From Chlamydiota bacterium (GTDB taxonomy: Bacteria > Auribacterota > JACPWU01), in the NCBI GenBank assembly GCA_016196885.1, contig JACPWU010000058.1:94-32093 (forward strand): DNA of 32,000 bases, read 5' to 3'. The notes beneath the pieces were generated by a model. The model saw nothing but the letters and a program-made list of their open reading frames with translations, ran no database searches and was not told where the DNA came from. Both the position numbers and the translations under genes were made by a program. Positions 2,490 through 28,134 of the stretch are shown piece by piece (the first letter of the stretch is position 1; the number at the start of each line of letters is the position of its first letter).

Positions 2490-2588
2490 TCGTCGTTCGT
2501 ATTTCGTTAAAAATGAGAAACAGATAACGAGTAACAACTGAATTTAGAATTTGCTACAATATTGCAAAATTGCTAGGAGACTTTGATT

Positions 2589-3335: not shown

Positions 3336-3355
3336 AAAATCAATAGGTAGAAATC

Positions 3356-7667: not shown

Positions 7668-7713
7668 AAATTAACAATTCTAATTCTAGATTTCAACTGA
7701 TAAATATGTAAAA

Positions 7714-9807: not shown

Positions 9808-9857
9808 AAAAAGCCCATCTTATTGATATTCCTTTTTATCTAAAGGCACGAAGCCAT

Positions 9858-11954: not shown

Positions 11955-11960
11955 CTTGTA

Positions 11961-12110
11961 TTTTCCATTCCTGTCATTCCCGCAGGCTTCAACGAAATAG
12001 CCCCTGTGGGGTAAGCGGGAATCCAAAAATGGATCCGTCCCCGAGAGTTTTAGTCGGGGATCCATCTATTTCGGGGATGACAAGGGACGGACACTTAGGA
12101 ATGGCAAAAC
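11961..12110. repeat. structured intergenic element with nested inverted repeats (REP/MITE-like)
   Basis: Outer inverted repeat CCATTCCT (11965-11972) / AGGAATGG (12097-12104). Also GTCATTCCC (11973-11981) / GGGGATGAC (12073-12081). Inner stems are TTCCCGC/GCGGGAA (11977-11983 / 12015-12021) and TCCCCGA/TCGGGGA (12038-12044 / 12054-12060). Confidence 0.5.
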
Positions 12111-12172
12111 CATAGGTCTTTTGAACTGAAGGGTGCAAGCTAAACCGTTATCCAATAACAAGGTGTAATACA

Positions 12173-13090: not shown

Positions 13091-13270
13091 ATTAACTCCC
13101 CTCAGCCCAGCAAGGGAGGCTTTTCTACCAGTGGCAGTGCAAAGCCGACTGCGGTAGTAGATGTTTTTTTACAGCTCTCACCTTAAATAAAAGGGGGGCT
13201 CTGCGCTCTTTGGGTGAGGGGAGTTTTTTTACTCTCCCCTTTAGTTAAAAGGGGAGTCGGAGGGGTTAAG
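13091..13270. repeat. composite structured intergenic repeat (MITE-like; imperfect termini TTAACTCCCC / GGAGGGGTTAA)
   Basis: 11-bp perfect inverted repeat AACTCCCCTCA (13094-13104) / TGAGGGGAGTT (13215-13225). Hairpin CTCCCCTTT (13234-13242) / AAAGGGGAG (13248-13256). Both modules recur elsewhere in the window, at 31898-31965 and 31301-31335. Confidence 0.5.
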
Positions 13271-13280
13271 TTTTCCTTAT

Positions 13281-14336
13281 ATGAAAAAAATTCTTTTCCT
13301 AACCCACGGACCCATCGAGGCTGCCTCCAGCCGGGTGAGGGTGTATCAGTTTTTGCCCTATTTAGATGAGCGGGGGATCGCCTATGAGATTCTTCCGGCC
13401 TTGCCTTCCGATGTGTTCCAAAAATATTATCCTTGCTCAAGGTTATTCTCTAAGCTTGCTTTTTGGGGAATGCTTTTTGTGAGGCGATTGAAACATCTTT
13501 TGTTGCTCAAAAGATACGACGTCATTTTTTTGCAAAGGGAGGTAATGCCTTACCTGCCGCCTTTTTTTGAAAAAATCATTCGTCGAAAAGCCTCGCGCTT
13601 GATCTTTGATTTTGACGATGCCATTTATCTCTCCAGAAAAACAGGATTTTGGGCGCGTCTTCAGAGACAAAAAATTGAAAAGATCGTTTGTTGGAGCGAT
13701 CAAATCATTGTGGGAAATGAATATTTGGCCTCTTTTGCAAAATCACTCAACTCACATGTAAAAGTGATTCCTTCCTGTGTGGATACGGAGCGATATGTTC
13801 CGCTCGCTCAGAAAAATTCTCTTCCCATCGTTGTTTGGGTGGGGACTCCCAGTTCTCTTCCCTATTTGAAGATGATGCAGGGGATTTTAAGACGATTCAG
13901 TTCTCAAGAGAATTTTGTGATGCGGGTGGTGGGGGCAGATCCTCGAGACTCTCTGGGAATTCCGGTTCAATTTCTTCCTTGGGATCTCCAGAGAGAAGGG
14001 GGGGATTTGCGAACGGCAGACATTGGAATCATGCCGCTTGCAAACGGAGAAAGAGAGTGCGGTAAGTGTGGGTACAAATTGCTTCAATACATGGCCTGCG
14101 GGCTCCCTGTGATTGCATCCGATGTGGGCGTTAATAGCGAGATTGTTTTAGAAGGGGTCACTGGATTTCTCGTTTGCAGTGAAGCTGAATGGGAGGAGAA
14201 ACTCAAATTGCTTTTACGAGATGAAAAATTGAGAGAAAAAATGGGGGCTGAGGGAAGAAAGAGGGCAGAGTCTTTGTATTCTCTGAAGCGTTTTTCACAA
14301 GAATGGGTTTCGATGGTTGAAGAGGAGTCATCGTGA
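13281..14336 (+). CDS. glycosyltransferase family 4/1 (GT-B fold)
   Basis: 351 aa. The C-terminal half carries the GT1 motif region (KLLQYMACGLPVIASDVGVNSEIVLEGVTGFLV). Confidence 0.8.
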   Translation: MKKILFLTHGPIEAASSRVRVYQFLPYLDERGIAYEILPALPSDVFQKYYPCSRLFSKLAFWGMLFVRRLKHLLLLKRYDVIFLQREVMPYLPPFFEKIIRRKASRLIFDFDDAIYLSRKTGFWARLQRQKIEKIVCWSDQIIVGNEYLASFAKSLNSHVKVIPSCVDTERYVPLAQKNSLPIVVWVGTPSSLPYLKMMQGILRRFSSQENFVMRVVGADPRDSLGIPVQFLPWDLQREGGDLRTADIGIMPLANGERECGKCGYKLLQYMACGLPVIASDVGVNSEIVLEGVTGFLVCSEAEWEEKLKLLLRDEKLREKMGAEGRKRAESLYSLKRFSQEWVSMVEEESS

Positions 14337-15427
14337 AATACAAATTGTGTATCTTAACCACGGATTCATCGTGGGGCGGAACAGAAAAAATGATTGAGAC
14401 CCTTGTCAAAGGTCTTTTCACTTCTTATGAGATTTCTGTCGTAAGCTTGAGAGGGGATGGAACCCTGATCCATCGTGTTCGCCCCTTTTGCAAGGAAGCG
14501 GTCAATCTACAAATGCGTTCTAAATGGGATGTCGGGGCCCTTTACCGACTTTGGAAATTTTTAAAAAAGGGGCATTACGAAATTCTTCACACCTTTCTTT
14601 TTCACGCCAATATTTTGGGAAGAATCTTGGGCAAACTTTTGAGAGTCGCTGTCATCATTTCTTCTCAAAGAAATGTAGACCCTTGGCGAAAAATCCATCA
14701 TGTGTGGCTGGACCGCTGGACCTCTTCTTTCAGTGATGTTGTGATTTCGAATTCTAAGGCGGGTCAGGACCGCTTGGTCTCGATAGAAAAAATTCCGTCT
14801 CAAAAGATAGAAGTGGTTTACAACGGCTTGGATTTCTCTGAAATTCCTGTAAAAAATAAACATGTTTCATCAGATCATTATGGCGTGGGAATGGTTGGAA
14901 ATTTTTGGGGAATGAAGGGAGAGGCCAAGGGGTATTTTTACTTTATCGAGGCGGCTCAAAGGCTTTTGAAAATTCGGGAGGATGTTTATTTTTTGCTTGT
15001 GGGTGCGGGTGACAGGCAAAAATATGAAAAAAGGGTGAGCGAGCTTGGCCTCCAAAATCATTTTCGTTTTCTGGGCGGGGTCACTTCTATTTATGAGGCC
15101 TTGGCGTTGATGGATGTTTTTGTGCTTCCTTCCGAGTGGGAGGGTTTTCCTGTAAGCATCTTAGAGGCGATGGCGTTTGGCGTTCCCGTGATTGCAACAC
15201 AGGTAGGGGGCATTCCTGAACTGATTGAAAATGGTGAAACGGGCCTTTTGATTCCTCCTCGAGACCCTCTTGCGATCGAGGAGGCCATTTTAAGATTGTT
15301 GGACAATCCTGTTTTGAGGGAGCGATTGGTTAAGAACGCAAAGAAAATAGTTTCAGAGCATTTTCGACAAGAGAGAATGATTGAGGAGACTCAGAAAATT
15401 TATTTGAGGCTGTTAAATAGCTTATGA
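14333..15427 (+). CDS. glycosyltransferase family 4
   Basis: PSEWEGFPVSILEAMAFGVPVIATQVGGIPELIENGETGLL is the GT4 EX7E motif. The GTG start overlaps the upstream stop (GTGA). Confidence 0.85.
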   Translation: MKYKLCILTTDSSWGGTEKMIETLVKGLFTSYEISVVSLRGDGTLIHRVRPFCKEAVNLQMRSKWDVGALYRLWKFLKKGHYEILHTFLFHANILGRILGKLLRVAVIISSQRNVDPWRKIHHVWLDRWTSSFSDVVISNSKAGQDRLVSIEKIPSQKIEVVYNGLDFSEIPVKNKHVSSDHYGVGMVGNFWGMKGEAKGYFYFIEAAQRLLKIREDVYFLLVGAGDRQKYEKRVSELGLQNHFRFLGGVTSIYEALALMDVFVLPSEWEGFPVSILEAMAFGVPVIATQVGGIPELIENGETGLLIPPRDPLAIEEAILRLLDNPVLRERLVKNAKKIVSEHFRQERMIEETQKIYLRLLNSL

Positions 15428-16608
15428 CATCAAAAATTAAAGTCTGTCACGTGATTACCCGTTTGATCATCGGAGGGGCACAGGAGAATACCCTTTTCAC
15501 GGTAGAGGGTTTATCTCAAAAAAATGATTTTGACGTGACCTTGGTTTATGGTCCAGAAAAGGGACCCGAGGGAGATTTAAGTTTGAAAATGAAGTCGCCC
15601 GCGCGTTTTAGGACAAGGGTCGAACCCTTCTTGAGAAGGAATATTCATCCCCTCTATGATGCGATGGCCTTTTTGAGACTTCTTATTTTTTTTCGCAAAG
15701 AGCATTTTCAAATTGTGCACACGCACAGTTCCAAGGCTGGTATTTTGGCCCGCCTCGCTGCCTTTTGTGCAGGTGTTCCTGTCATTGTTCATACCATTCA
15801 TGGCCTCCCATTCCACGCCTTTCAAAATATTTGGGTGAATCGTTTGTACCGATGGCTTGAGCGTGTGTCGGCCCTTTGGACACAACGCATCATTGCTGTT
15901 GCGGATGCCATGACGCGGCAGGCAGTCCAGGCCAGGGTTGCCCCCCAAGAAAAATTTATGACCATTCACAGCGGGATGGACTTGGACGTTTTTATTCATC
16001 CCCCCAGAGATGTTCAAATGATCCGAGAAAAGTGGGGACTCTCTCCCACCGATTGGGTGGTGGGAAAAATTGCGCGGCTCTTTTATCTTAAAGGACATGA
16101 ATATCTCATTCAAGCGGCCTCAAAGGTGGTGAACGAATTTCCCAAGGTGAAATTTTTGCTGGTGGGAGATGGTATTTTAAAAGATGATTTAAAGAAAAAA
16201 ATTGCAGAGTCAGGATTGGAAAAAAATTTTATTTTTGCAGGCCTCGTTTCTCCCGAGCAAATCCCCTCCATGATTGCTATCATGGATGTGGTGGTGCATG
16301 TTTCTTTGCGGGAAGGCTTGGCCAAGGTTTTGCCTCAGAGCTTGGCTTCGGGCAAGCCCGTGATTGCCTTTGATTTGGACGGTGCCAATGAAGTGGTGCG
16401 GGATGGGGTGAATGGATTTCTCATTCGTCCTTTTGATATTTCTTCTTTAAGCGAGGCCATTTTAAAATTAAAAAGAGATCCAGGGCTTTCCCGTCGTTTA
16501 GGTCAACGGGGTCTTGAAACCGTGGATCCTTATTTTAGGAAAGAGTACATGGTGGGGAGGATTGAGGAAGTTTATAGGGGGTTGATAGGGATTGATGATA
16601 GAATATAA
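15424..16608 (+). CDS. glycosyltransferase family 4
   Basis: N-terminal VCHVITRLIIGGAQ and C-terminal SLREGLAKVLPQSLASGKPVIAFDLDGANEVVRDGVNGFL. The ATG overlaps the upstream stop (ATGA). Confidence 0.85.
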   Translation: MTSKIKVCHVITRLIIGGAQENTLFTVEGLSQKNDFDVTLVYGPEKGPEGDLSLKMKSPARFRTRVEPFLRRNIHPLYDAMAFLRLLIFFRKEHFQIVHTHSSKAGILARLAAFCAGVPVIVHTIHGLPFHAFQNIWVNRLYRWLERVSALWTQRIIAVADAMTRQAVQARVAPQEKFMTIHSGMDLDVFIHPPRDVQMIREKWGLSPTDWVVGKIARLFYLKGHEYLIQAASKVVNEFPKVKFLLVGDGILKDDLKKKIAESGLEKNFIFAGLVSPEQIPSMIAIMDVVVHVSLREGLAKVLPQSLASGKPVIAFDLDGANEVVRDGVNGFLIRPFDISSLSEAILKLKRDPGLSRRLGQRGLETVDPYFRKEYMVGRIEEVYRGLIGIDDRI

Positions 16609-16749
16609 AATGAGTTTAATAACCAATAACCAATTTCAAATGACAAATGAATAATCCAATGTCCAATTCCCAACGATTTAAGCCTTGGGAAATTAGCGTT
16701 GGTCCTTGGAATTAATTTGTCATTGATAATTGAGAATTTGTCATTCGCT
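16609..16749. repeat. AT-rich low-complexity intergenic repeats containing a thrice-repeated 10-mer
   Basis: AATGACAAAT at 16639-16648, with its reverse complement ATTTGTCATT at 16715-16724 and 16736-16745. Also CCAAT-type short repeats and a direct repeat CCTTGG(G)AA(A)TTA at 16683-16695 / 16704-16714. Confidence 0.45.
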
Positions 16750-17853
16750 ATGTGGTCACTCGTTTATATTTATCTTTTGCTCTTTTCTTTCGCGGTGTCT
16801 TGGCTTTGCGTTCATTTTTGCGCAAGGCTGGCTTTGAAATTAAACCTAATGGATGAGCCAGGGCCTCGGAAGATTCAGAAGAAGTCCATTCCTCTCTTGG
16901 GAGGTTTAGGGATGATCTTGGCGTTTGTAATCACGGTTTGGATCAGTTTAGTTTTATTAAAAATATTTTCTCATCATGCTTTTTTTCTCTCCCATTTTCC
17001 AACTGAGCTTCTCAGGTATGTGCCAGGTGTCTTGAAGGTTTCTCATAAGTTATGGGCCATTGCCTGGGGGAGTTTTCTCGTTTTTTTGGTGGGTTTGGTA
17101 GATGATTTTAGGGAACTGGGCGCTTGGCCAAAACTCATTGTTCAAATCATCGCTGCCAGCCTTCTCTTTTTTGCGGGGGTGCGAATCACCATTTTCTCTT
17201 CGCATTTGATGGTGAGTTTACCCTTGACGGTTCTGTGGGTGGTGGCCATCACCAATGCCTTTAATCTCTTGGACAACATGGACGGTCTTTCAGCGGGCAT
17301 TGCATGGATCGGTTGTTTTTTTCTCCTGGTGATTACCGCTTCTCAAAATCAGTATTTTGTGAGCGTTTTGATTTGCGTTTTGATGGGGGCCCTCGGGGGA
17401 TTCTTGAAGTTAAATTTTAATCCTGCGAAAATTTTCATGGGGGATGCCGGTAGCTATTGGATTGGGTATCTCATGGCCAGCGTGACCCTGTTGGCCACTT
17501 ATTATGGGAAGGGAAATCCCAATTTCTTCTCTGTTCTGAAACCCGTTTTTATCTTGGGGGTTCCCCTTTATGATCTTTGCAGTGTGATTCTGATTCGGCT
17601 CTATCAAGGACGCTCCATTTTTGAGGCAGATCGTCAGCATTTCTCTCATCGTTTGATCGCCTTGGGCATGGGACAAGGGGGGGCCGTTCTTTTCCTTTAC
17701 TTGCTCTCCTTTTCCTTTGGGACTTCCTCTCTCTTTCTCGAAAAAATTTCTAAATGGCAACTTTATTTTGTAGGACTGCAGGCGTTATCCTTTGTGTCAA
17801 TCATAGCCCTTCTTGAATATTTTGGACGCAAAAGGGAGAATTCGTCCACTTGA
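16750..17853 (+). CDS. wecA: polyprenyl-phosphate HexNAc-1-phosphate transferase (WecA/MraY family, initiating enzyme)
   Basis: VGLVDDFRELG, NAFNLLDNMDGLSAG and FMGDAGS are MraY/WecA motifs, and there are about 10-11 TM helices. I prefer the ATG at 16750 to the TTG at 16699, which lies inside the repeat region. Confidence 0.85.
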   Translation: MWSLVYIYLLLFSFAVSWLCVHFCARLALKLNLMDEPGPRKIQKKSIPLLGGLGMILAFVITVWISLVLLKIFSHHAFFLSHFPTELLRYVPGVLKVSHKLWAIAWGSFLVFLVGLVDDFRELGAWPKLIVQIIAASLLFFAGVRITIFSSHLMVSLPLTVLWVVAITNAFNLLDNMDGLSAGIAWIGCFFLLVITASQNQYFVSVLICVLMGALGGFLKLNFNPAKIFMGDAGSYWIGYLMASVTLLATYYGKGNPNFFSVLKPVFILGVPLYDLCSVILIRLYQGRSIFEADRQHFSHRLIALGMGQGGAVLFLYLLSFSFGTSSLFLEKISKWQLYFVGLQALSFVSIIALLEYFGRKRENSST

Positions 17854-19736
17854 TTTCAACTGCAAAGGCCCACTCGATTCTGGACCGTATTCTAAAAAAA
17901 ACATTGTCATACGGTCTGATCCTGCTGATGACTCTTCGTCCCTTGGTTTCAGGAATGGCAGAGCCGTCTTCAAATGTTTTCTTTTTTGTTGGAGCCCTCT
18001 TTCTCTTTTTCGTTTGGTTTTTAAAGTCTGTTTTAAGAGGCGAGATTTTTTTTCGAAAGACTCCCCTTGATTTTTTACACCTCATTTTTTTGTGCGCCCT
18101 CGGCTTGTCATGGTCTCAATCCATCCATCGCTATGAAGGGATTCCATTTATTCTCAATATGCTCACGGTCATTCTTGTTTACTGTTTAATCATTCAAACG
18201 CATGAAAATGAGGCAGATTCGGCCCGCCTGATTTTATTTTTATTGATGACGGCAAGTATCGTTAGCTTCTATGCCCTTTATCAAAGGCTTTTTGGGCTTC
18301 ATGAAACCTTTCAATATTTGGTAGAACACCATGTCCAGATTGAGAAATTAACCACGGCTTTTAAACATCGTTTAACGAGCCCTCGCGTCTTTGCAACATT
18401 GATTTATCCCAACGCCTTGGCTGGGTATTTGCTAAGCATTATTCCTTTAGCGCTTTCAACGATCCTCATTAAAAAAGGAGGGTTTTATCGGAAAGTGGCC
18501 ATTGTTTCTATCATGGGAGGTGTGTTGGTTTTTCTTTTGTGTGAGAAACCTCTTTGGATGATCGCGGGCGGGGTGCTGGGCATTTTTTATCCTTTTCTTT
18601 ACCTTCTTGCTTTTTTTCTGACCCTTTCAAAAGGGGGATGGGCCGTTTTCTTTTTGATGAGAGTCATGGCCTATTTTCTTTTTTATCGAGAAATCTCCCC
18701 TCGTTTTAAAAAACTATTTCTCTTGGGGGTTGGATTGTTAGAAATGGGGGGATGTTTTTTTCTCATGAGACATGATCCCGATTTTCTTTTCAAGGCTTTT
18801 AAATCTTTTGAGGTGCGCTGTCAGTATTGGCAGGCGGCAGGCGGGATGGTGAGGGATTATCTGGGTTTGGGGGTGGGACCTGCGGCCTTCGGTTCTCTTT
18901 ATGCGCATTATCAATTGCCTAGCGCAGAGGAGACGCGCATGGCGCACAATAATTTTTTGCAAGTGGCCTCGGAATTGGGAATCATCGGGGGTGTTGCTTT
19001 TCTTCTGATTTGGCTTGTTCCCCTCATCAAGGGTTTGAAGAAATTCCAATTTTCTTCTCCCATTGAGAGAGGAGCTCTTTTTGCAAGTTTAGCCTTCGTC
19101 CTGCATGGGCTCGTAGATTTTGATCTTTATGAGCCTGCCCTGGCGATGAATGCCTGGGCATTCTTGGCGCTTTTATCGTGCGGGCATTCGGAAAAAAGGC
19201 ATGGGTTTTCCTTTCGATGTGAGAGTTCCAAAATGAAGGGGGCTCTGATGATCGCGGGTCAAGTTGTGGCCGTTTCTTTGATTTTGCTCGTGCGGTCTTA
19301 TGATCAGGCTGAGAATTATTTTAGGCAGGCTGTCGAGGCCCGGGCTCAAAAAAAATGGGAAGAGGCCGGGTGGGCTGTGGAAAGATCTCTCCAATTTTGT
19401 CATTTGAATCCCCAAGCCTATGTCTTGAAGGCAACTCTCAACGAGCGTGAAAAAAAATGGCATGAAGCCATCGCTTCGTATGAAGAGGCCATCCAAAGAG
19501 ATTCACATAATCCCCTTTTTCCCTATCGTCAGTCGCTTCTTTATGAACGTTTGGAAAAAGAAGAGGGTAAAAGTTATGCTTCCCAGATTGAGGCGTGTTT
19601 AAAGAAAGCGATTTTTGATTATCCATCCCATGCCTCTTTGCATCTTGCCCTAGCCCATTTTTATCAAAGGGTTGGACGGCGTGAAGAGGCCTTGGTAGAA
19701 TATAAAGAAGCGACTCGCTTGGGTCGTAACCCCTAA
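17850..19736 (+). CDS. O-antigen ligase/polymerase (Wzy_C) family membrane protein with C-terminal TPR repeats
   Basis: Polytopic N-terminal region with the Wzy_C-type motif AHNNFLQVASELGIIGG. The C-terminal ~130 aa are TPR-like (AYVLKATLNEREKKWHEAIASYEEAIQRD..., LALAHFYQRVGRREEALVEYKEA). The TTG start overlaps the wecA stop (TTGA). Confidence 0.8.
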   Translation: MISTAKAHSILDRILKKTLSYGLILLMTLRPLVSGMAEPSSNVFFFVGALFLFFVWFLKSVLRGEIFFRKTPLDFLHLIFLCALGLSWSQSIHRYEGIPFILNMLTVILVYCLIIQTHENEADSARLILFLLMTASIVSFYALYQRLFGLHETFQYLVEHHVQIEKLTTAFKHRLTSPRVFATLIYPNALAGYLLSIIPLALSTILIKKGGFYRKVAIVSIMGGVLVFLLCEKPLWMIAGGVLGIFYPFLYLLAFFLTLSKGGWAVFFLMRVMAYFLFYREISPRFKKLFLLGVGLLEMGGCFFLMRHDPDFLFKAFKSFEVRCQYWQAAGGMVRDYLGLGVGPAAFGSLYAHYQLPSAEETRMAHNNFLQVASELGIIGGVAFLLIWLVPLIKGLKKFQFSSPIERGALFASLAFVLHGLVDFDLYEPALAMNAWAFLALLSCGHSEKRHGFSFRCESSKMKGALMIAGQVVAVSLILLVRSYDQAENYFRQAVEARAQKKWEEAGWAVERSLQFCHLNPQAYVLKATLNEREKKWHEAIASYEEAIQRDSHNPLFPYRQSLLYERLEKEEGKSYASQIEACLKKAIFDYPSHASLHLALAHFYQRVGRREEALVEYKEATRLGRNP

Positions 19737-20275: not shown

Positions 20276-20469
20276 TGACAAAGCGAATACGGCGGTTTCT
20301 GAAATTATTCTGTGGTTGGTCTCTTCTTGCTATTGGAATAGTCGGTTTATTCCTTCCCTTTCTTCAAGGGATTCTCATGATCGTGAGTGGTTTGGCACTC
20401 TTAGCGACAGAATACCCTTGGGCAAAGGGCTGGCTTGAGGGAATCAAAAAGAAGATAAAGAAAAAATGA
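20275..20469 (+). CDS. small two-TM membrane protein, PGPGW-like
   Basis: 64 aa. IGIVGLFLPFLQGILMIVSGLALLATEYPWAKGWL resembles the PGPGW family, but LPFLQG replaces PGPG. The GTG start overlaps the aroQ stop and the stop overlaps the next start (ATGA). Confidence 0.5.
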   Translation: MTKRIRRFLKLFCGWSLLAIGIVGLFLPFLQGILMIVSGLALLATEYPWAKGWLEGIKKKIKKK

Positions 20470-21509
20470 AGACGAAAGTCATCGCCGTTCTAGGGATGCA
20501 TCGAAGCGGAACTTCTGTGATTACTCGTGCCCTGAATTTAGGGGGGGTCTATTTGGGTGAGCCAGGTGATCTCATGGAAGGTGCTTCAGATAATTCCGAA
20601 GGTTTTTGGGAACACAAGGGGATCGTAGATCTTAACGAGCGGATTTTACAGGCCCTCAAAAGGACATGGGACAGTGTTCTCCCGCTTCCTCACGAGTGGC
20701 ATCTTTCGAAAGACTTTCAACCGTTCAAATCCGAGATGGTGAGACTGATCAAAAGTTGTTTTTTGAATCGTCCCCTTTGGGGATGGAAGGATCCACGAAC
20801 CTCTTTAACCTTTGATCTTTGGAAAGAGGCCCTTCGTGAATTGGGGATGGACTGTGTCTCTCTCGTTATGATTCGAAATCCTTTAGACGTCGCAAAATCT
20901 CTTTTGAAACGGAATGGTTTTTCTCAAGGTAAATCATTTGGGATGTGGCTTCATTACAACCTTTCTATTCTTCAAACGACCCAAGGGCTTCAGCGGACCT
21001 TTCTCTTCTATGATCTATTTCTGGAAAATTGGGAAAAGGAAATGAAAAATTGTTTTTCAAAAATGGGTCTAGATTGGCCCCGTGAAAACAATGTTTTGAA
21101 TGAAGAAATGAATGCGTTGATTCGCCTGGACCTTCGCCACAGCCAATCAAAATTTGAGGAGCTCAAAAAAAGAGAGGCCTCTCTTCCCCTTGTCACTGTA
21201 TATGAATTTCTTGAAATGCTGAGTCAGTCCTCTCAAGACTCCGTGTTTCAAATGAAAATAGAAACAGGGTGTAAAGACTTCTTGAACTATGCCCGTTATT
21301 TTCAAGAAGATATAGAATCTCTCTGGAAAGAAAAACAGCAATGTCAGATACTTGGCCAACATCTTTTGAAAGTAGAAAAGGCATTGTTGGAAGCGCAACA
21401 GGCACTCATCCTTCAACAAAAGGAGCTCCAGGCATTTTTGAATTCCCGCAGTTGGAAACTCACAGCACCTCTGAGGATGTTCTCTCGCCTCTTAAGGTTT
21501 AGGAAATGA
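20466..21509 (+). CDS. sulfotransferase family protein with C-terminal coiled coil
   Basis: VLGMHRSGTSVITR (5'-PSB-like P-loop) and VMIRNPLDVAKSLLKR (3'-PB-like RxPxDxxxS). The C-terminal ~60 aa are heptad-like and Q/L/K/E-rich, followed by SRSWKLTAPLR. Confidence 0.75.
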   Translation: MKTKVIAVLGMHRSGTSVITRALNLGGVYLGEPGDLMEGASDNSEGFWEHKGIVDLNERILQALKRTWDSVLPLPHEWHLSKDFQPFKSEMVRLIKSCFLNRPLWGWKDPRTSLTFDLWKEALRELGMDCVSLVMIRNPLDVAKSLLKRNGFSQGKSFGMWLHYNLSILQTTQGLQRTFLFYDLFLENWEKEMKNCFSKMGLDWPRENNVLNEEMNALIRLDLRHSQSKFEELKKREASLPLVTVYEFLEMLSQSSQDSVFQMKIETGCKDFLNYARYFQEDIESLWKEKQQCQILGQHLLKVEKALLEAQQALILQQKELQAFLNSRSWKLTAPLRMFSRLLRFRK

Positions 21510-21573: not shown

Positions 21574-21582
21574 TGCTATAAT
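21574..21582 (+). promoter_or_regulatory. candidate extended -10 promoter (TGcTATAAT)
   Basis: TGCTATAAT at 21574-21582. There is no good -35 at 17 nt. It would give a leader of about 150 nt for the 21740 gene. Confidence 0.3.
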
Positions 21583-21641
21583 TATCCTAACCTGATAAGA
21601 GAGATAAAATAAGAGAAGCAGAGATGAGACCTTTTTTCTTG

Positions 21642-21717
21642 AGTCCACAGAGGGTCGTCTAAAATCCACGGGACAGTGGTTTCGTGGACTATGGACTATC
21701 GACTGTGGACTTTTTTT
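21642..21717 (+). terminator. leader hairpin plus U-tract (attenuator-like or terminator)
   Basis: AGTCCACA (21642-21649) / TGTGGACT (21704-21711) and GTCG/CGAC (21654-57 / 21700-03), followed by T7 (21711-21717). Inner hairpin TCCACG (21665-70) / CGTGGA (21683-88). GTGGACT-like segments repeat three times, allowing alternative pairings. Confidence 0.4.
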
Positions 21718-21739
21718 AAAGTAAATAGGAGATGATGCC

Positions 21740-22876
21740 ATGATCAGCTTTCGACAAATAGAAGAATTGATCAACATGAAAACAGATTCTCTCCCCTTGG
21801 TCAGTTTTTATTTAGGCATGGAGGGGAGCCGTTATTCAAAAAAGAATTGCGAAAATGCCTTGAAGGATTTGATGAAAGAAAGAGAGAAGGATATTCAGAA
21901 TTTTGAAAAGAATAAAAATCATAAACTCTCTTTAGAAAAAGATTTTGAAAAAATTCGTCAATATGTGAAAAATGAATTGGATTGGAAAGGGAAAAAAGGT
22001 GTGGCCATTTTTTCTTCTTCCTCTATGAATTTCTGGCAAGTTTATTTTTTGCCCAGTTCTGTGAAAAATACTTTGGTCATTGATCATACACCTTACATTC
22101 GTCCGTTGATTGCCCTTTTTGATGAATATCGCCGATTTTGCATGGTCTTGGTGGATAAATCCAAGGCGAGAATTTTTGAGGTGTTCTTGGGCGAAATTGA
22201 AGAACATACAGAGTTTACAGATGCCTTGCCTCGAAAAGCCAAAGCAGGGGGCTGGAAGGGATATGAAGAAAATCGTATTCAGCGGCATTTAACAGAAGAG
22301 GTACGGAAGCATTTTAAAAAGGTTGCGGATTCACTTACGGATCTTTTTAAGTTGCATCATTTTGATTGGTTGATTTTAGGAGGGCATCGGGCAGAGTTTC
22401 CTGAGTTTGAGAAAGAGCTACGTCCTTTTTTAGAGGACAGAATTGTGGCTCGTTTGGAAATGGATTTACGCGCTTCTCAGGAAAATATTTTGGAGAAGGC
22501 GCTGAAGGTTGAGAAGGAGATTTCCAAAGAGCATGGCGAGACTTCTGTGAAAAATCTTTTAGAACTCACAGGAGAAAGGCAAGCCGTGACAGGCGTTCTC
22601 GGAACTTTAACAGCTTTTCGAAGAGGGCAGGTTCACAGCCTTGTGGTCAGCCGCGATTATCAGGTGCCTGGAATGCGGTGTTTGAAATGCGGTTATTTGG
22701 ATCAAGAACATAAGAATTGTCCTCAGTGTAAAGAGCCTTTACAGGCGATTCCTGATTTGGTGGACGATTTGGTAGAGGCAGCCGTCACTCAAGGGTGTAA
22801 GGTTGAGTATGTTTCTGGAAATGGTCGGGATCGTCAGTGGGGTGGGATCGGGGCGATTTTGAGGTTTAAAGGTTGA
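21740..22876 (+). CDS. bacterial eRF1/Pelota-like protein (baeRF-type) with GGW in place of GGQ and a zinc-ribbon insert
   Basis: The M-domain-like stretch RFCMVLVDKSKARIFEV...ALPRKAKAGGWKG aligns with eRF1 YGFIVMDGSGALFG...DLPKKHGRGGQS. The C-domain has AVTGVLGTLTAFRRGQVHSLVVS and a terminal GGIGAILRF (eRF1/Pelota GGIGGILRY-type). CLKCG...CPQC sits at the mini-domain position. RBS AGGAGA at 21727-21732. Confidence 0.7.
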   Translation: MISFRQIEELINMKTDSLPLVSFYLGMEGSRYSKKNCENALKDLMKEREKDIQNFEKNKNHKLSLEKDFEKIRQYVKNELDWKGKKGVAIFSSSSMNFWQVYFLPSSVKNTLVIDHTPYIRPLIALFDEYRRFCMVLVDKSKARIFEVFLGEIEEHTEFTDALPRKAKAGGWKGYEENRIQRHLTEEVRKHFKKVADSLTDLFKLHHFDWLILGGHRAEFPEFEKELRPFLEDRIVARLEMDLRASQENILEKALKVEKEISKEHGETSVKNLLELTGERQAVTGVLGTLTAFRRGQVHSLVVSRDYQVPGMRCLKCGYLDQEHKNCPQCKEPLQAIPDLVDDLVEAAVTQGCKVEYVSGNGRDRQWGGIGAILRFKG

Positions 22877-22986: not shown

Positions 22987-22995
22987 TGATATAAT
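22987..22995 (+). promoter_or_regulatory. candidate extended -10 promoter (TGaTATAAT) for the CBS-korAB operon
   Basis: TGATATAAT at 22987-22995, preceded by about 80 nt of phased A/T-tract repeats (GAGTTTTGAATTT / GAGTTTTAGAATTT / CGGATTTCGAATTTCG...). Confidence 0.35.
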
Positions 22996-23029
22996 GCCGT
23001 CCTGTTTATTAAGAGAGGTATGTCAAGAT

Positions 23030-23509
23030 ATGCCTACATCAAAGCCGGTGGAAGTATTGCTGAAAGAAAAGAAAATTTATGAGATTGTGAATCCAAGGCT
23101 TGTCCAGGCTGGGCCGGATATTTCTATCAAAGAGGCCATTCGTTTGATGCAGGAGCGTCATGCGGGTTATATCGTGATTGCGAAGGATCAAAAAGTGGTG
23201 GGTCTTTTTGCGGAAAATGAAGTGGTGTTAAAAATTTTAGAAAATAACGTGGATTGGGATCAACCGGTGAGTTTGTTCATGAATTCGAGTCCTGTGACTT
23301 TGAATATCAAAGATCCTGTGGGGAAGGCGATTGATTTGATGGGACATGGGAATTTTTATCATATCCCGCTGGTAGATGAAAATAATCATTTGATGAATGT
23401 TTTATCTGTTCGTACCCTCATTCGTTTCTTGTCTGAATTCTACCCGACAGAGGTCTATAACTTACCGCCCAAGCACGATCAGATTATACTGACACAAGAA
23501 GGGGGGTAA
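23030..23509 (+). CDS. CBS domain pair protein
   Basis: Two CBS repeats (..ISIKEAIRLMQERHAGYIVIAKDQKVVGLFAENEV.. and ..VGKAIDLMGHGNFYHIPLVDENNHLMNVLSVRTLI..). I prefer the ATG at 23030, because the ATG at 22994 lies inside the candidate -10 element. Confidence 0.8.
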   Translation: MPTSKPVEVLLKEKKIYEIVNPRLVQAGPDISIKEAIRLMQERHAGYIVIAKDQKVVGLFAENEVVLKILENNVDWDQPVSLFMNSSPVTLNIKDPVGKAIDLMGHGNFYHIPLVDENNHLMNVLSVRTLIRFLSEFYPTEVYNLPPKHDQIILTQEGG

Positions 23510-25356: not shown

Positions 25357-26375
25357 GTGAAGCTGTTTTGAAATTACCATACACCAAAGAAGATTTTGTT
25401 TCAGGTCAAGAGGTGAGGTGGTGTCCAGGCTGTGGAGATTATTCTATTCTCGCCACCATGCAAAGAACCTTGTCCAAATTTGATTTGCCTATTGAAAAAT
25501 ATGTTTTTGTTTCAGGAATTGGTTGTTCGAGCCGGTTTCCTTATTACATGAATACGTATGGATTTCATACCATTCATGGACGGGCGCCTACGATTGCGAC
25601 GGGCTTGAGATGCGTGAACCCTGAGCTTTCGATTTGGGTGATTACAGGAGATGGGGATGGCCTTAGCATTGGAGGGAATCATTTGATTCACTGCATGCGC
25701 CGAAATGTGGATATTAATATTTTGCTTGTGAACAATCGGATTTATGGATTGACGAAAGGGCAGTATTCTCCGACTTCTGAAAAAGGAAAAATCACCAAGT
25801 CTTCTCCCTATGGAACGATTGAGCAGCCGATCAATGCACTTTGTGTTGCCATTGCCTCAGAGGCCACTTTTATTGCGAGAACCCTGGATACTGATCCCAC
25901 CCACATGAGTTATATTTTGGAGCGGGCGGCCAAGCATAAAGGTGTTTCCTTTGTCGAGATTTATCAAAATTGTTTGATCTTTAATGACAAGGCCTTTGTC
26001 CCAGTGACCGGTCGAGAGACGCGTGAGGACCGCATGGTTTATTTAAAAGATGGACAGCCTCTCGTATTCGGTAAGAAAAAAGACAAGGCCATTCGATTGA
26101 AGGGGCTTTATCCTGAAGAGGTGAATTACACAGCGGGGGGAGACACGAAAGATCTCTTGATTCACAATGAGAAGGATGAGAATCCGCATTATGCCTATTT
26201 TTTGACTCAAATGGAACATCCTGAAATGCCGGTTCCTTTTGGTGTTTTTCGAGCCATCGAAAAACCGACCTATGATGAAATGTTGGATGAGCAGATTCGG
26301 CAAGCTCAAGTGAAAGGGAAAGGGGATTTGAAAAGCTTGATTTATGGGCCTAACACATGGAAGGTGGGATCATGA
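25353..26375 (+). CDS. korB: 2-oxoacid:ferredoxin oxidoreductase subunit beta (TPP-binding, KorB-type)
   Basis: RWCPGCGDYSIL, GIGCSSRFPYY and GDGDGLSIGGNH (TPP motif). The ATG overlaps the korA stop (ATGA). Confidence 0.9.
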   Translation: MSEAVLKLPYTKEDFVSGQEVRWCPGCGDYSILATMQRTLSKFDLPIEKYVFVSGIGCSSRFPYYMNTYGFHTIHGRAPTIATGLRCVNPELSIWVITGDGDGLSIGGNHLIHCMRRNVDINILLVNNRIYGLTKGQYSPTSEKGKITKSSPYGTIEQPINALCVAIASEATFIARTLDTDPTHMSYILERAAKHKGVSFVEIYQNCLIFNDKAFVPVTGRETREDRMVYLKDGQPLVFGKKKDKAIRLKGLYPEEVNYTAGGDTKDLLIHNEKDENPHYAYFLTQMEHPEMPVPFGVFRAIEKPTYDEMLDEQIRQAQVKGKGDLKSLIYGPNTWKVGS

Positions 26376-26902
26376 ATACCATTCAATGTCCAGCCTGTGG
26401 TTCTCAAAATCTAGCAGGGGAAGACAGGTGTGAGCAGTGCTTTCATTCGCTTATGCAAAGAGATTTGCCTCGAGCGAAAAAGGATGATGCGATTCAATCT
26501 GTGATGATGACAGCTCCCATTTTAGAGCTTCTCACGGGAAAAGATTTGCTGGTCGCAAGTACAACCGATACTGTTCAAAAAATTGTAAAGATTTTTCAGA
26601 AGGAAAATAAAAATTGCATCTTGGTTTATAAGAAGAAAAAAATGGTTGGTATTATCAGCTTTCGGGACCTTTTGTTAAAAGTCACTGGGAAAATTGAAGA
26701 TCTCTCCAAAGTGAAAGCCGAAGCTATCATGACCCCCAACCCCGAATATGTTCGGGCCGAAGACCCCATTGCCTATGCCGTAAATAAAATGGCCATGGGC
26801 GGCTTTAGACATCTTCCAGTTTTGGCTCGAGATGGGACCCCCTTGAGCATTATCATGATCAAGGATGTATTGAAATACCTCTCTAAGAGAAAAGAGAAGT
26901 AG
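26372..26902 (+). CDS. zinc-ribbon plus CBS domain pair protein
   Basis: N-terminal CPACGSQNLAGEDRCEQC zinc ribbon followed by two CBS repeats. The ATG at 26372 overlaps the korB stop (ATGA). Confidence 0.8.
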   Translation: MNTIQCPACGSQNLAGEDRCEQCFHSLMQRDLPRAKKDDAIQSVMMTAPILELLTGKDLLVASTTDTVQKIVKIFQKENKNCILVYKKKKMVGIISFRDLLLKVTGKIEDLSKVKAEAIMTPNPEYVRAEDPIAYAVNKMAMGGFRHLPVLARDGTPLSIIMIKDVLKYLSKRKEK

Positions 26903-26972: not shown

Positions 26973-26996
26973 TAAAGTATATATTTATATATACAT
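26964..26996. promoter_or_regulatory. perfect 12-bp-arm palindrome overlapping the -10 and the start codon
   Basis: ATGTATATATAA (26964-26975), a 9-nt spacer, then TTATATATACAT (26985-26996). The right arm contains the first two nucleotides of the annotated ATG (26995-26997). Confidence 0.45.
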
Positions 26997-28134
26997 GTAT
27001 AAGAGAATATTAACCTTAGATAAGTTTTCTCATGAGAGTTCTTTCTTGTGGGGACCCCGTCAAACTGGGAAGAGTACTCTGTTAGAGCAGCTTTTTCCTG
27101 ATGCGCCTTATTATGATCTTTTACTTTCAGATGTGGTCACTCGTTTCCAAGTGAAACCCTCGCTTTTAAGGGAAGAGCTTTTATCCAGTCCCCCTCACGG
27201 GCCAGTCATTCTCGATGAAATCCAGAAGGTTCCAGAACTTTTAGATGAAATCCAGTGGCTGATGACTAAGAAAAATATCCATTTTATTCTGTGTGGATCT
27301 AGTGCAAGAAAACTGAAAAGGACGGGAGCTAATCTTTTGGGAGGCAGGGCCATTCGGTATCAACTTTATCCTCTCGTGTTTCCTGAAATCTCTGATTTTG
27401 ATCTCATAAAGGCTTTGAATCATGGTTTGCTCCCACGTCATTATCTTTCTAAAGAGCCACAGGAACTCGTCGAGTCCTATATTGCCGATTACCTTCAACA
27501 TGAAATCGCTGCGGAGTCTCTTGTACGTAATCTCCCTTCCTTTCACCGCTTTCTTGAAGTGGCGGCTTTCAGCAATGGTGAGATTCCTGTTTTTAGTAAC
27601 ATTGCGTCAGATTGTGGTGTGAGCTCTCCCACCGTGAGGGAGTATTTTGAAATTCTACAGGATACTCTGATAGGCTCTTTTTGTCCGGCCTATCTGAAAC
27701 GGCTTAAGCGTCGTTTAATTCAGTCACCTAAATTTTATTATTTTGATGTGGGGATCGCAAATTTTCTTCTTAAAAGAGGTTTTATTCAATATGGATCGGA
27801 ATCTTTTGGGAGAGCTTTTGAACATTTTATCTACCAAGAAGTAATAGCTCATTCGCAATACTCTCGCAAGAAGTACCCTGTCAGTTATTGGAGAACTTCT
27901 TCAGAATACGAAGTGGACTTTATTCTGGGGGACGCCATGATTGCACTAGAGGTGAAAGGAGTCCCGCTGGTCAATTCAAAACACCTTAAAGGTCTTCAGA
28001 TGTTTTGCGAAGATTATGCAGTGAAAAAAGCTATAGTGGTTTCGCTGGATCCCCGGCCTAGAAAAATGGGTGACATTGAAATTCTTCCCTGGAAAAAATT
28101 TCTTGAAGCGCTTTGGTCTGGAGAACTTATTTAA
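26995..28134 (+). CDS. AAA_14 ATPase with DUF4143 C-terminal domain (PD-(D/E)xK nuclease-like motif visible)
   Basis: Walker A GPRQTGKSTLL and Walker B-like VILDEIQ. C-terminal YEVDFILGDAMIALEVKG has the D...E-x-K arrangement typical of restriction-endonuclease-fold domains. No SD precedes the ATG. Confidence 0.85.
   Translation: MYKRILTLDKFSHESSFLWGPRQTGKSTLLEQLFPDAPYYDLLLSDVVTRFQVKPSLLREELLSSPPHGPVILDEIQKVPELLDEIQWLMTKKNIHFILCGSSARKLKRTGANLLGGRAIRYQLYPLVFPEISDFDLIKALNHGLLPRHYLSKEPQELVESYIADYLQHEIAAESLVRNLPSFHRFLEVAAFSNGEIPVFSNIASDCGVSSPTVREYFEILQDTLIGSFCPAYLKRLKRRLIQSPKFYYFDVGIANFLLKRGFIQYGSESFGRAFEHFIYQEVIAHSQYSRKKYPVSYWRTSSEYEVDFILGDAMIALEVKGVPLVNSKHLKGLQMFCEDYAVKKAIVVSLDPRPRKMGDIEILPWKKFLEALWSGELI

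What the first reader, a model, noticed from the sequence alone, without database searches (positions are those of the whole stretch)
21740..22876. Bacterial eRF1/Pelota-fold protein with the catalytic GGQ replaced by GGW
Residues ~130-378 align convincingly by eye with the eRF1 M and C domains. LPRKAKAGGWKG corresponds to eRF1 LPKKHGRGGQS, LILGGHRAEF to LVLAGSADF, and the terminal GGIGAILRF to GGIGGILRY.

Bacteria normally use the unrelated RF1/RF2 fold. eRF1-like ('baeRF') proteins in bacteria are rare and have no experimentally defined role. Here the Gln that coordinates the hydrolytic water is a Trp, so the protein may bind stalled ribosomes or tRNA without hydrolysing peptidyl-tRNA (Pelota-like), or may use different chemistry.

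A CxxC...CxxC ribbon is inserted at the mini-domain position. The N-terminal ~125 aa show no NIKS-type codon-recognition motif. The gene is monocistronic, so partners are not obvious.
Basis: partly seen in the sequence, partly recalled or inferred. Interest (0 to 1): 0.65.

Follow-up and report, generated by a model that had tools for sequence, protein, structure and literature searches.

The report
Balon-type ribosome hibernation factor homologue
This gene encodes a bacterial relative of the archaeal/eukaryotic release factor eRF1 in which Trp replaces the catalytic Gln; it belongs to the protein family shown in 2024 to park idle ribosomes (Balon), so it is a new member of a known kind, not an orphan.

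Summary
ORF 21740..22876 (+, 378 aa) is a real three-domain aeRF1-fold protein. Profile alignment places its GGW exactly on the GGQ of aRF1/eRF1. NIKS is absent, and a conserved 4-Cys ribbon sits at the aRF1 zinc-ribbon insertion site.

The claim that such proteins are rare and uncharacterised is out of date. The protein is a Pfam baeRF_family10 member (123 bits). So is Msmeg1130 (124.6 bits), a Balon ribosome hibernation factor solved on the ribosome. The AF2 model (pLDDT 88) matches ribosome-bound Msmeg1130 best (TM 0.84/0.85), against about 0.5 for eRF1. A second solved Balon, Rv2629, carries the same loop type (AGW-N-GY against GGW-K-GY).

The family is large: 13,645 cluster representatives. 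G-G-aromatic is its commonest loop motif (W/F/Y in 164 of 242), and four Cys occur in 222 of 242.

The most likely function is a non-hydrolytic, mRNA-independent A-site binder that stores ribosomes under stress. Ribosome binding itself is inferred, not shown.

No conserved partner gene exists. A CBS-pair gene follows only in the nearest orthologue, and Hsp20 precedes another.

Verdict: new member of a known kind, modest interest. Side finding: some archaeal aRF1s keep NIKS but read GGWSQ.

The parts
21740..22876 (+). Complete gene for a 378-aa baeRF_family10 / Balon-like protein
   Evidence: ORF. Pfam PF18854 at 123 bits against a cut-off of 27.1. AF2 model pLDDT 88.3. Best fold match is Msmeg1130 Balon, TM 0.84/0.85.
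21740..22114 (+). N-terminal domain (residues 1-125). It has no NIKS motif, and the tip of its helical hairpin (about residues 47-63) is variable.
   Evidence: The profile aligns it to the aRF1 N domain, with the NIKS position falling in a non-conserved helical stretch. Secondary structure. Variability of residues 47-63.
22091..22108 (+). P-Y-I-R-P-L motif at the N/M domain junction (residues 118-123). P122 and L123 are about 93-94% conserved. It aligns with 'PFIHPL' of Msmeg1130 and the 'KFHTEAL' region of eRF1.
22115..22519 (+). Middle domain (RNase H-like; residues 126-260), equivalent to the eRF1 M domain
   Evidence: Pfam baeRF_family10 covers residues 118-258 and eRF1_2 covers 133-213. 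Alignment to eRF1.
22229..22273 (+). Loop PRKAKAGGWKGYEEN (residues 164-178), homologous to the eRF1 GGQ loop. The GGW codons are 22247-22255. The loop contains no Gln.
   Evidence: Translation. Column-for-column alignment to GGQ of aRF1/eRF1 and to AGW of Rv2629. G171 is 85% conserved; position 172 is W in 123, F in 35 and Y in 6 of 242 relatives. The model has pLDDT below 50 only at residues 170-172, so this is a flexible loop.
22274..22291 (+). Start of the basic helix after the loop, R-I-Q-R-H-L (residues 179-184). It corresponds to eRF1 'RFARLR'; R182 is 85% conserved.
22520..22873 (+). C-terminal (Pelota/eRF1_3-type) domain, residues 261-378
   Evidence: Pfam eRF1_3 covers residues 279-377 (20 bits, sub-threshold). 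The profile aligns to the eRF1 and aRF1 C domains.
22670..22750 (+). Four-Cys zinc ribbon (C314, C317, C327, C330) inserted in the C domain. The Cys codons span 22679-22729.
   Evidence: Translation. Each Cys is 95-98% conserved, and all four are present in 222 of 242 relatives. It aligns with the aRF1 zinc-ribbon insert and with the Cys-less hairpin of Msmeg1130 and Rv2629. pLDDT is about 92-95.
22841..22867 (+). C-terminal GGIGAILRF motif, equivalent to eRF1 GGIGGILRY
21727..21731 (+). Shine-Dalgarno sequence AGGAG, 8 nt before the ATG
   Evidence: The same box is present in orthologous loci.
21641..21717 (+). Long imperfect hairpin followed by a T7 run in the 230-nt upstream spacer. It is either the terminator of the upstream gene or a leader/attenuator of this gene.
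   Evidence: MFE -44.6 kcal/mol, z = -3.2, none of 200 shuffles as stable. Sequence. No Rfam match. Not conserved in orthologous loci.
22994..23509 (+). Downstream CBS-pair gene (the public gene call starts at 23030). Possible but unproven partner.
   Evidence: Pfam CBS at 66 bits. The same arrangement, with a 63%-identical CBS protein, occurs next to the 66%-identical orthologue. It is absent from more distant loci.

Best explanation
The gene encodes a Balon-type ribosome hibernation factor. This is a bacterial descendant of archaeal aRF1 that keeps the three-domain, tRNA-shaped fold but has lost stop-codon reading (no NIKS) and the catalytic Gln (GGW).

By analogy with the solved Balon complexes, it would enter the A site of vacant or stalled 70S ribosomes without reading mRNA. 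The N domain would contact the decoding centre. The flexible G-G-Trp loop and the basic helix behind it would sit at the entrance of the peptidyl-transferase centre without hydrolysing peptidyl-tRNA. The C domain would contact EF-Tu; its zinc ribbon occupies the site of Balon's EF-Tu-binding beta-hairpin. The outcome would be translation silenced and ribosomes protected during starvation or stress.

Shown here: homology, family membership, fold, the W-for-Q replacement, absence of any Gln in the loop, and conservation of the ribbon. Inferred: ribosome binding, lack of hydrolysis, EF-Tu contact through the ribbon, and a stress role.
For: - **Family.** Pfam baeRF_family10 scores 123 bits. Msmeg1130, solved on the ribosome as Balon (8V9J/8V9L), is in the same Pfam family at 124.6 bits.
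- **Sequence matches to solved structures.** The best PDB sequence matches are Balon Msmeg1130 and Rv2629. With the family profile, Msmeg1130 scores 123.6 bits, above aRF1 at 94.9.
- **Fold.** The AF2 model (pLDDT 88.3) superposes best on ribosome-bound Msmeg1130 (TM 0.84/0.85, rmsd 3.4 A). It also matches P. urativorans Balon and Rv2629 (TM 0.72-0.75), against about 0.5 for eRF1/aRF1 and 0.45 or less for Pelota.
- **Loop.** Rv2629 has the same loop type, AGW-N-G-Y against GGW-K-G-Y. It binds the A site and was assayed alongside RaiA in a GFP reporter translation assay (PMC10901736).
- **No catalytic residue.** No Gln occurs in the loop of the query or of its relatives at 52% identity or more, and there is no NIKS.
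- **Loop length.** Loop length is unconstrained across the family (9, 12, 13, 17-18 and up to 36 residues). Burroughs & Aravind associate this pattern with non-catalytic clades (PMC6514570).
- **rRNA-contact residues.** The basic residues R179, R182 and H183 behind the loop are conserved.
- **Context.** Stress-type neighbours occur in close orthologues: Hsp20 directly upstream and a CBS-pair gene downstream.
Against: - No experiment exists for this subfamily.
- Scores against all three NCBIfam hibernation-factor equivalog models are far below their cut-offs (79/480, 78.5/330, 52.7/320).
- Identity to solved Balons is only 16-19%.
- The EF-Tu-binding hairpin is a full zinc ribbon here, so EF-Tu engagement may differ.
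- No RaiA/HPF gene is in the window or in the sampled loci. The Balon paper names RaiA as the most frequent neighbour.
- The two glycines and the eRF1-like basic flank are retained, which is not what a relaxed, purely steric loop would predict.
Confidence: 0.72

Rival explanations
1. It is a codon-independent peptidyl-tRNA hydrolase, a rescue-type release factor. The retained G-G turn would place the backbone amide of residue 172 in the peptidyl-transferase centre, and Trp would replace Gln without abolishing hydrolysis.
For: - G170 and G171 are 74-86% conserved, and the eRF1-like 'P-K/R-K/R-x-K-x-G-G' flank is kept.
- Loop length is constant among the 20 closest relatives, with a single one-residue exception.
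- Burroughs & Aravind singled out family 10 as possibly catalytic.
- Sister subgroups read GGW[SA]Q (36 of 242). This matches the GGxSQ pattern that Burroughs & Aravind report for two VLRF-1 families, a clade they treat as catalytic.
- From my own knowledge (Shaw & Green 2007 and later RF structures, not checked here): in bacterial RFs the Gln side chain is largely dispensable for hydrolysis by water.
Against: - The query's loop has no Gln at all, and it carries two acidic residues (E176, E177) after a 3-residue insertion.
- Rv2629, which has the same loop type, was solved as a hibernation factor.
- Msmeg1130 keeps a Gln at this position (AGQ) and was still characterised as a hibernation factor.
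- There is no codon-reading or mRNA-channel-probing element.
Confidence: 0.12
2. It is a Pelota/Dom34-like non-catalytic rescue factor. It would recognise stalled ribosomes and promote subunit splitting or recycling, rather than long-term storage.
For: - It shares the fold superfamily with Pelota, and there are significant Foldseek hits to Pelota/Dom34 (E about 1e-11 to 1e-7).
- It has no catalytic Gln.
- Burroughs & Aravind proposed a Dom34-like role for baeRF-1 proteins.
Against: - Pelota matches are much weaker (TM 0.45 or less) than Balon matches (0.72-0.85).
- Profile hits to Pelota cover only part of the M and C domains.
- No Pelota-type loop or N domain was detected by Pfam.
- From my own knowledge: bacteria lack the ABCE1 splitting partner.
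Confidence: 0.1
3. It is a component of a conflict or defence system, or has another role away from the ribosome.
For: - Burroughs & Aravind link the innovation of baeRF-1 to biological conflicts.
- An ATPase 4 kb downstream matches the PADLOC candidate system PDC-S01.
- Patchy phyletic spread suggests horizontal transfer.
Against: - The protein and its immediate neighbours have no PADLOC hit.
- Neighbours in the window are housekeeping or metabolic genes: aroQ and a 2-oxoacid:ferredoxin oxidoreductase.
- No defence-type gene recurs next to homologues.
Confidence: 0.04

Closest known systems
Msmeg1130 (MSMEG_1130), Balon-type hibernation factor of Mycobacterium smegmatis, PDB 8V9J/8V9L
   Same: - Same Pfam family, baeRF_family10 (124.6 against 123.2 bits).
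- Best sequence and fold match (TM 0.84/0.85 over the whole chain).
- Three-domain architecture of similar length, no NIKS.
- Shared P-x-I-x-P-L junction motif and C-terminal G-x-A-A-x-L-R motif.
   Different: - Only 17% identity.
- The NCBIfam MSMEG_1130 model scores 79 bits against a cut-off of 480.
- Its loop is 'ERAGQMR', shorter and with Gln retained, against 'KAGGWKGYEE'.
- Its C-domain insert has no cysteines, where the query has a four-Cys ribbon.
Rv2629, Balon-type factor of M. tuberculosis, PDB 8V9K
   Same: - Same loop type, with Trp at the GGQ-Gln position followed by x-G-Y: 'TAGWNGY' against 'AGGWKGY'.
- Same fold (TM 0.73/0.75).
- No NIKS and no GGQ.
   Different: - Its best Pfam family is baeRF_family2 (145 bits); family 10 scores only 40 bits.
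- It has no zinc ribbon.
- The NCBIfam Rv2629 model scores 52.7 bits against a cut-off of 320.
Balon of Psychrobacter urativorans (AOC03_06830), PDB 8RD8/8RDV/8RDW
   Same: - aeRF1-like fold (TM 0.72/0.75).
- It is the founding member of the functional class: an mRNA-independent A-site hibernation factor acting with EF-Tu(GDP).
   Different: - It is the weakest sequence relative among the solved Balons (44.6 bits with the family profile).
- The NCBIfam model scores 78.5 bits against a cut-off of 330.
- Its lasso loop, bL27 trap and beta-hairpin are described only structurally and could not be mapped here.
Archaeal aRF1 (e.g. PDB 4AF1) and eukaryotic eRF1
   Same: - Full-length profile alignment to aRF1 (E=5.5e-26).
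- G-G at the same columns, a basic 'PKKH'-like flank and an 'R-F-x-R' helix.
- A zinc-ribbon insert at the same site of the C domain.
- The GGIGAILRF terminus.
   Different: - Trp instead of the catalytic Gln, and a 3-residue longer loop.
- No NIKS and no eRF1_1 domain hit.
- TIGR03676 scores 67.5 bits against a cut-off of 234.7.
- The overall superposition is poorer (TM about 0.5).
Pelota/Dom34
   Same: Same superfamily. A non-catalytic A-site factor lacking the Gln.
   Different: - Much weaker fold and sequence similarity.
- Different N domain.
- Works with Hbs1/aEF1alpha-GTP and ABCE1 (my own knowledge).

Membership tests
Pfam PF18854 baeRF_family10 | Score at or above the curated gathering threshold (27.1 bits) for the family HMM | tested here: met
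   123.2 bits, E=1.3e-35, residues 118-258 covering model positions 1-142 of 143.
Balon-type ribosome hibernation factors (Helena-Bueno et al. 2024) | Three-domain aeRF1-like architecture, 360-420 aa | tested here: met
   378 aa. AF2 model pLDDT 88.3. Whole-chain TM 0.84/0.85 to Msmeg1130 and 0.72-0.75 to the other two Balons. The length criterion comes from the preprint.
Balon-type ribosome hibernation factors (Helena-Bueno et al. 2024) | Absence of the NIKS stop-codon-recognition motif | tested here: met
   There is no NIKS-like string in residues 1-125. The aRF1 NIKS position aligns to a non-conserved helical stretch.
Balon-type ribosome hibernation factors (Helena-Bueno et al. 2024) | Absence of the GGQ motif | tested here: met
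   GGW sits at the aligned position, and the loop (residues 165-178) contains no Gln.
Balon-type ribosome hibernation factors (Helena-Bueno et al. 2024) | HP motif (N-terminal insertion contacting A1492/A1913) | tested here: inconclusive
   The papers give no residue numbers. The query has R-P where Msmeg1130 has H-P in the conserved P-x-I-x-P-L motif. Whether that is the HP motif is unknown.
Balon-type ribosome hibernation factors (Helena-Bueno et al. 2024) | Lasso loop around A2602 and the bL27 trap in the middle domain | not testable with these tools
   These are defined only in ribosome-bound structures, and no coordinates were available for superposition.
Balon-type ribosome hibernation factors (Helena-Bueno et al. 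2024) | Beta-hairpin insertion in the C domain that binds EF-Tu(GDP) | tested here: inconclusive
   An insertion exists at the same site, but it is a four-Cys zinc ribbon. Burroughs & Aravind regard the 2-strand insert as a possibly degenerate zinc ribbon. EF-Tu contact was not tested.
Balon-type ribosome hibernation factors (Helena-Bueno et al. 2024) | Binds the ribosomal A site and inhibits translation | not testable with these tools
   This needs biochemistry or cryo-EM.
Balon-type ribosome hibernation factors (Helena-Bueno et al. 2024) | Stress-response gene neighbourhood (RaiA, Hsp20, etc.). This is typical of the family, not strictly defining. | tested here: inconclusive
   No RaiA/HPF gene in the window. 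Hsp20 lies upstream of the 52%-identical orthologue. A CBS-pair gene lies downstream in the window and next to the nearest orthologue. Neighbours are otherwise variable.
NCBIfam hibernation-factor equivalogs NF052288 (MSMEG_1130), NF052287 (AOC03_06830) and NF052289 (Rv2629) | Score at or above the curated cut-off (480, 330 and 320 bits) | tested here: not met
   79.2, 78.5 and 52.7 bits. The protein is a distant relative, not an equivalog of any of the three.
Classical aRF1/eRF1 (TIGR03676; Pfam eRF1_1/2/3) | Curated cut-offs, plus the GGQ and NIKS motifs | tested here: not met
   TIGR03676 scores 67.5 bits against 234.7. eRF1_2 (25.4) and eRF1_3 (20) are below their gathering thresholds, and there is no eRF1_1 hit. 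GGQ and NIKS are absent.
Pelota/Dom34 | Closest fold and sequence relationship to Pelota | tested here: not met
   TM is 0.45 or less, and profile matches are partial (E=1e-5 to 1e-10) and restricted to the M and C domains.

The most novel reading that the evidence does not exclude
The conserved G-G-Trp turn is not a dead remnant but a working element. One version: it keeps backbone-mediated, codon-independent peptidyl-tRNA hydrolysis, making this zinc-ribbon clade a stress-time release or rescue factor. Another version: the Trp is a specific plug that stacks on a peptidyl-transferase-centre base, with the retained aRF1-type zinc ribbon giving a different (aRF1-like, or zinc/redox-sensitive) mode of EF-Tu engagement from the solved Balons. 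The clade would then be a functional intermediate between aRF1 and Balon.
Probability: 0.12. Interest if true: 0.6.

Novelty: new member of a known kind. Interest (0 to 1): 0.3.

Why it matters
The protein itself is an ordinary, uncharacterised member of the Balon/baeRF10 family from an uncultured bacterium, so its existence changes nothing.

What is useful is the family picture that came from checking it. First, a large clade found almost entirely in MAGs keeps two ancestral aRF1 features that the solved Balons have lost or altered: the G-G turn with its basic flank, and the four-Cys ribbon. Second, an aromatic residue, usually Trp, is the preferred replacement for the catalytic Gln. It is also present in Rv2629, whose ribosome complex is already solved. 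That gives a concrete, testable question: what does the Trp contact at the peptidyl-transferase centre?

The side observation that some archaeal aRF1s with an intact NIKS read GGWSQ instead of GGQ may interest people working on termination.

Tried and rejected
- **Conserved partner gene.** Eight look-ups of homologue contigs and a Pfam tally of 79 neighbours from 25 genome loci found no universal partner. The recurrent AcrB/HlyD pair in Aminicenantes is on the opposite strand in most of those loci and looks like lineage synteny. The CBS and Hsp20 neighbours are confined to the window's nearest relatives.
- **Link between the CBS neighbour and mycobacterial Hrp1.** I recalled Hrp1 as a CBS protein, but it is not among the PDB sequence matches. 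The archaeal Sri hibernation factors (9ZNF and others) do match, but more weakly than generic CBS-pair proteins. This stays a lead only.
- **Genome scan with the 96-sequence alignment.** It failed because the alignment had no stretch conserved enough to search with. It was repeated with 20 sequences. The pattern used was the C-terminal motif, so archaeal aRF1s were also returned.
- **Rfam and conservation of the upstream hairpin.** No family match and no sequence conservation.
- **Defence-system reading.** No PADLOC hit for the protein or its adjacent genes.
- **Literature on 'GGW', 'GGWSQ' or 'GGF motif' in this context.** Nothing relevant in the library.
- **The 'well-conserved glutamine' of family 10 (Burroughs & Aravind).** I could not see their figure. 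Candidates are Q of 'AGQ' in Msmeg1130, Q of 'GGW[SA]Q', the Q before G-G (position 169; 84 of 242) and Q181 (136 of 242). This is unresolved.
Full report
**1. The observation**

An AGGAG box lies 8 nt before the ATG. The quoted motifs translate as stated.

An identical protein is annotated as hypothetical in a MAG labelled Chlamydiae (GCA_016178005.1, contig JACOUD010000009.1, 32,384 bp). Roughly 100 full-length homologues were recovered by word-indexed search. The gene is real.

**2. What it is**

*Profile searches.* Pfam assigns the protein to baeRF_family10 (PF18854) at 123.2 bits against a cut-off of 27.1. eRF1_2 (25.4 bits) and eRF1_3 (20 bits) fall just below theirs.

The best PDB sequence matches are not release factors. 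They are 'Ribosome hibernation factor Balon': MSMEG_1130 at E=8e-8 over the full length, and Rv2629 at E=3e-4.

NCBIfam shows the same relatives, far below the equivalog cut-offs: 79/480, 78.5/330 and 52.7/320. aRF1_eRF1 scores 67.5 against 234.7.

I rebuilt the two mycobacterial sequences from the alignment and scanned them. Msmeg1130 is itself a family-10 member at 124.6 bits, the same score as the query. Rv2629 is family 2.

*Structure.* An AF2 model built from 96 homologues has pLDDT 88.3 and pTM 0.77. Only residues 170-172 (GGW) fall below pLDDT 50. Foldseek against the PDB gave the following:

| Target | TM score | Note |
|---|---|---|
| Msmeg1130, ribosome-bound | 0.84/0.85 | rmsd 3.4 A, ranked first |
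| P. urativorans Balon | 0.72/0.75 | |
| Rv2629 | 0.73/0.75 | |
| aRF1/eRF1 | about 0.5 | |
| Pelota/Dom34 | 0.45 or less | |

**3. Is GGW the GGQ loop?**

Yes. The family profile aligns 'vpkrvkqgGWsg...ariqrh' to aRF1 'VPGKQRKGGQSA...RFARLR' and to eRF1 'LPKKHGRGGQSA...RFARLR' at high posterior confidence. A four-way hmmalign gives:

| Protein | Loop |
|---|---|
| Query | AG.GW-KGY |
| Rv2629 | TA.GW-NGY |
| Msmeg1130 | RaGQ-MR |
| eRF1 | RG.GQ-SA |

So Trp sits at the Gln position. One solved Balon already has Trp there, with the same x-G-Y extension. Another solved Balon keeps a Gln and was still characterised as a hibernation factor (PMC10901736).

**4. Conservation**

The census covered 242 relatives: the first set plus the best 150 of 13,645 cluster representatives found by a full HMMER scan, of which 2,391 had E<=1e-30. 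Results:
- The tripeptide is GGW in 95, GGF in 28 and AGW in 12.
- Position 172 is W in 123, F in 35 and Y in 6.
- GGQ occurs twice.
- All four Cys are present in 222 of 242.

Loops fall into types:
- The query's long type, 'GG[WFY]-x-G', with no nearby Gln (50 sequences).
- A short 'GGW[SA]Q' type (36 sequences).
- Others.

G171-to-R182 length is bimodal at 9 and 12 residues, with outliers to 36. The query and its relatives at 52% identity or more have no Gln anywhere in the loop.

In species-representative genomes, every hit is a MAG: Aminicenantes, Deferribacteres, Acidobacteriota, Chloroflexota and others. GGW persists in Acidobacteriota and Chloroflexota members that have lost the cysteines.

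**5. The zinc ribbon**

The CxxC...CxxC insert aligns with the insert of archaeal aRF1 ('YECPNDH...CSDC'). It also aligns with the Cys-less segment of Msmeg1130 and Rv2629.

Burroughs & Aravind describe exactly this. Classical aeRF-1 has a zinc ribbon in the Pelota domain, and many baeRF-1 families carry a two-strand insert there that may be a degenerate ribbon. In Balon, a beta-hairpin insertion in the C domain binds EF-Tu(GDP). That the ribbon plays the hairpin's role here is inference.

With the family profile, aRF1 (94.9 bits) scores between Msmeg1130 (123.6) and Rv2629 (66.5) or P. urativorans Balon (44.6). This clade is therefore a conservative, aRF1-like branch of the Balon radiation.

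**6. Context**

*Gene order.* All genes are on the + strand:
1. aroQ
2. a PGPGW membrane protein
3. a 347-aa ORF with no family match
4. this gene
5. a CBS-pair gene
6. 2-oxoacid:ferredoxin oxidoreductase alpha and beta
7. a second CBS-pair gene

.

*Upstream.* The 230-nt spacer holds a TGcTATAAT box and a long hairpin ending in a T-run.

*Downstream.* There is no terminator-like site before the CBS gene.

*Conservation of neighbours.* The CBS neighbour recurs only beside the 66%-identical orthologue. Hsp20 precedes the 52%-identical one. More distant loci differ. No RaiA/HPF gene was seen.

**7. Mechanism**

Published work shows that Balon binds the A site independently of mRNA. It lacks NIKS and GGQ, keeps the peptidyl-transferase centre inert, and associates with EF-Tu(GDP).

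Membership of the same Pfam family, the fold match to the ribosome-bound conformation and the Rv2629-type loop make the same mode of action the best reading (confidence about 0.7). Ribosome binding, absence of hydrolysis and EF-Tu contact are inferred.

The main rival is residual hydrolase activity through the retained G-G turn. It is not excluded, but it is disfavoured by the Gln-free, acidic, lengthened loop and by the Rv2629 precedent.

**8. Novelty**

But bacterial aeRF1 homologues are neither rare nor uncharacterised since 2024, and GG-aromatic is the commonest loop motif of the clade.

This is a new member of a known kind. The zinc-ribbon/GGW subfamily has no experimentally studied representative, which gives it modest interest. 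No paper in the searchable library discusses the Trp.

**9. Side finding**

Two archaeal MAG loci (L075 Micrarchaeota, L086) encode canonical aRF1s. They have eRF1_1/2/3 domains and an intact NIKS, but their loop reads KGGWSQ rather than GGQS. Thermoplasmata and Methanomassiliicoccales MAGs carry family-10-type proteins with GGMSQ.

Noticed in passing
L075:3935-5170 (+) (CAZOFO010000007.1, Candidatus Micrarchaeota MAG) and L086:4046-5176 (+) (CAZYHQ010000007.1, uncultured archaeon MAG): These are canonical aRF1s (Pfam eRF1_1 + eRF1_2 + eRF1_3) with an intact NIKS motif ('AANIKSKSTRKH', 'ASNIKSKSTRKN'). Their catalytic loop reads 'KGGWSQKRFE' / 'KGGWSQSRYE' instead of GGQS. That is the GGxSQ pattern, with Trp at the usual Gln position. 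Whether these archaea also have a GGQ aRF1 is unknown.
   Followed up: partly
L048:3764-4939, L049:3812-4987, L050, L051 (Thermoplasmata / Methanomassiliicoccales MAGs): These are archaeal members of the 'bacterial' family. baeRF_family10 is the best Pfam hit for the two proteins scanned, L048 and L049 (70-75 bits), and those two have no eRF1_1 domain. Their loop is 'KHKKGGMSQMRFQRLR'; the hmmalign table shows GGM, four Cys and a P-[YF]-I-R-P-L motif in all four.
   Followed up: partly
P0018 (L007:5001-6146) and P0194: These are the only two of 242 relatives in the zinc-ribbon clade that have a true GGQ at the aligned position ('NDGGQGGRDE', 'KAGGQQAEKN').
   Followed up: no
window 21574-21582 and 21641-21717: There is an extended -10-like box TGcTATAAT. 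Downstream of it is a 72-nt imperfect hairpin ending in a T7 run, about 10 nt before the Shine-Dalgarno of the baeRF10 gene (MFE -44.6 kcal/mol, z = -3.2). It is either the terminator of the upstream gene or a leader/attenuator. It has no Rfam match and is not conserved in orthologous loci.
   Followed up: partly
window 22994-23509 (+) and 26357-26902 (+): Two CBS-pair genes, 20% identical to each other, bracket the 2-oxoacid:ferredoxin oxidoreductase genes. The first directly follows the Balon-like gene, and this arrangement is conserved next to the closest orthologue. CBS-domain proteins are ribosome hibernation factors in archaea (Sri, Hib). The first CBS protein matches Sri chains of 9ZNF, but more weakly than it matches generic CBS proteins.
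   Followed up: partly
window 20466-21509 (+): A 347-aa ORF has no Pfam or PADLOC match. It sits between the PGPGW membrane-protein gene and the baeRF10 gene. No counterpart of this ORF was listed between the PGPGW gene and the baeRF10 gene in the orthologous locus L002.
   Followed up: no
window 6588-7667 (-): A deoxyhypusine synthase homologue (Pfam DS, 321 bits) lies on the opposite strand within a sugar-nucleotide / O-antigen-type cluster.
   Followed up: no
window 26995-28134 (+): An AAA_14/DUF4143 ATPase matches the PADLOC candidate defence system PDC-S01 (183 bits).
   Followed up: no
L014, L016, L020-L024, L028, L034, L063 (Aminicenantes MAGs), downstream of the homologue: A recurrent AcrB-type RND pump plus HlyD-type fusion protein lies next to the baeRF10 gene (11 members matched each family). 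It is probably lineage synteny rather than an operon.
   Followed up: partly
window 2583-19736 (+): A long same-strand cluster covers sugar-nucleotide synthesis (NTP transferase, dehydratase, RmlD), an ABC-2/Wzt exporter, several glycosyltransferases and a Wzy_C-TPR protein. This is a polysaccharide/O-antigen-type locus upstream of the finding.
   Followed up: no
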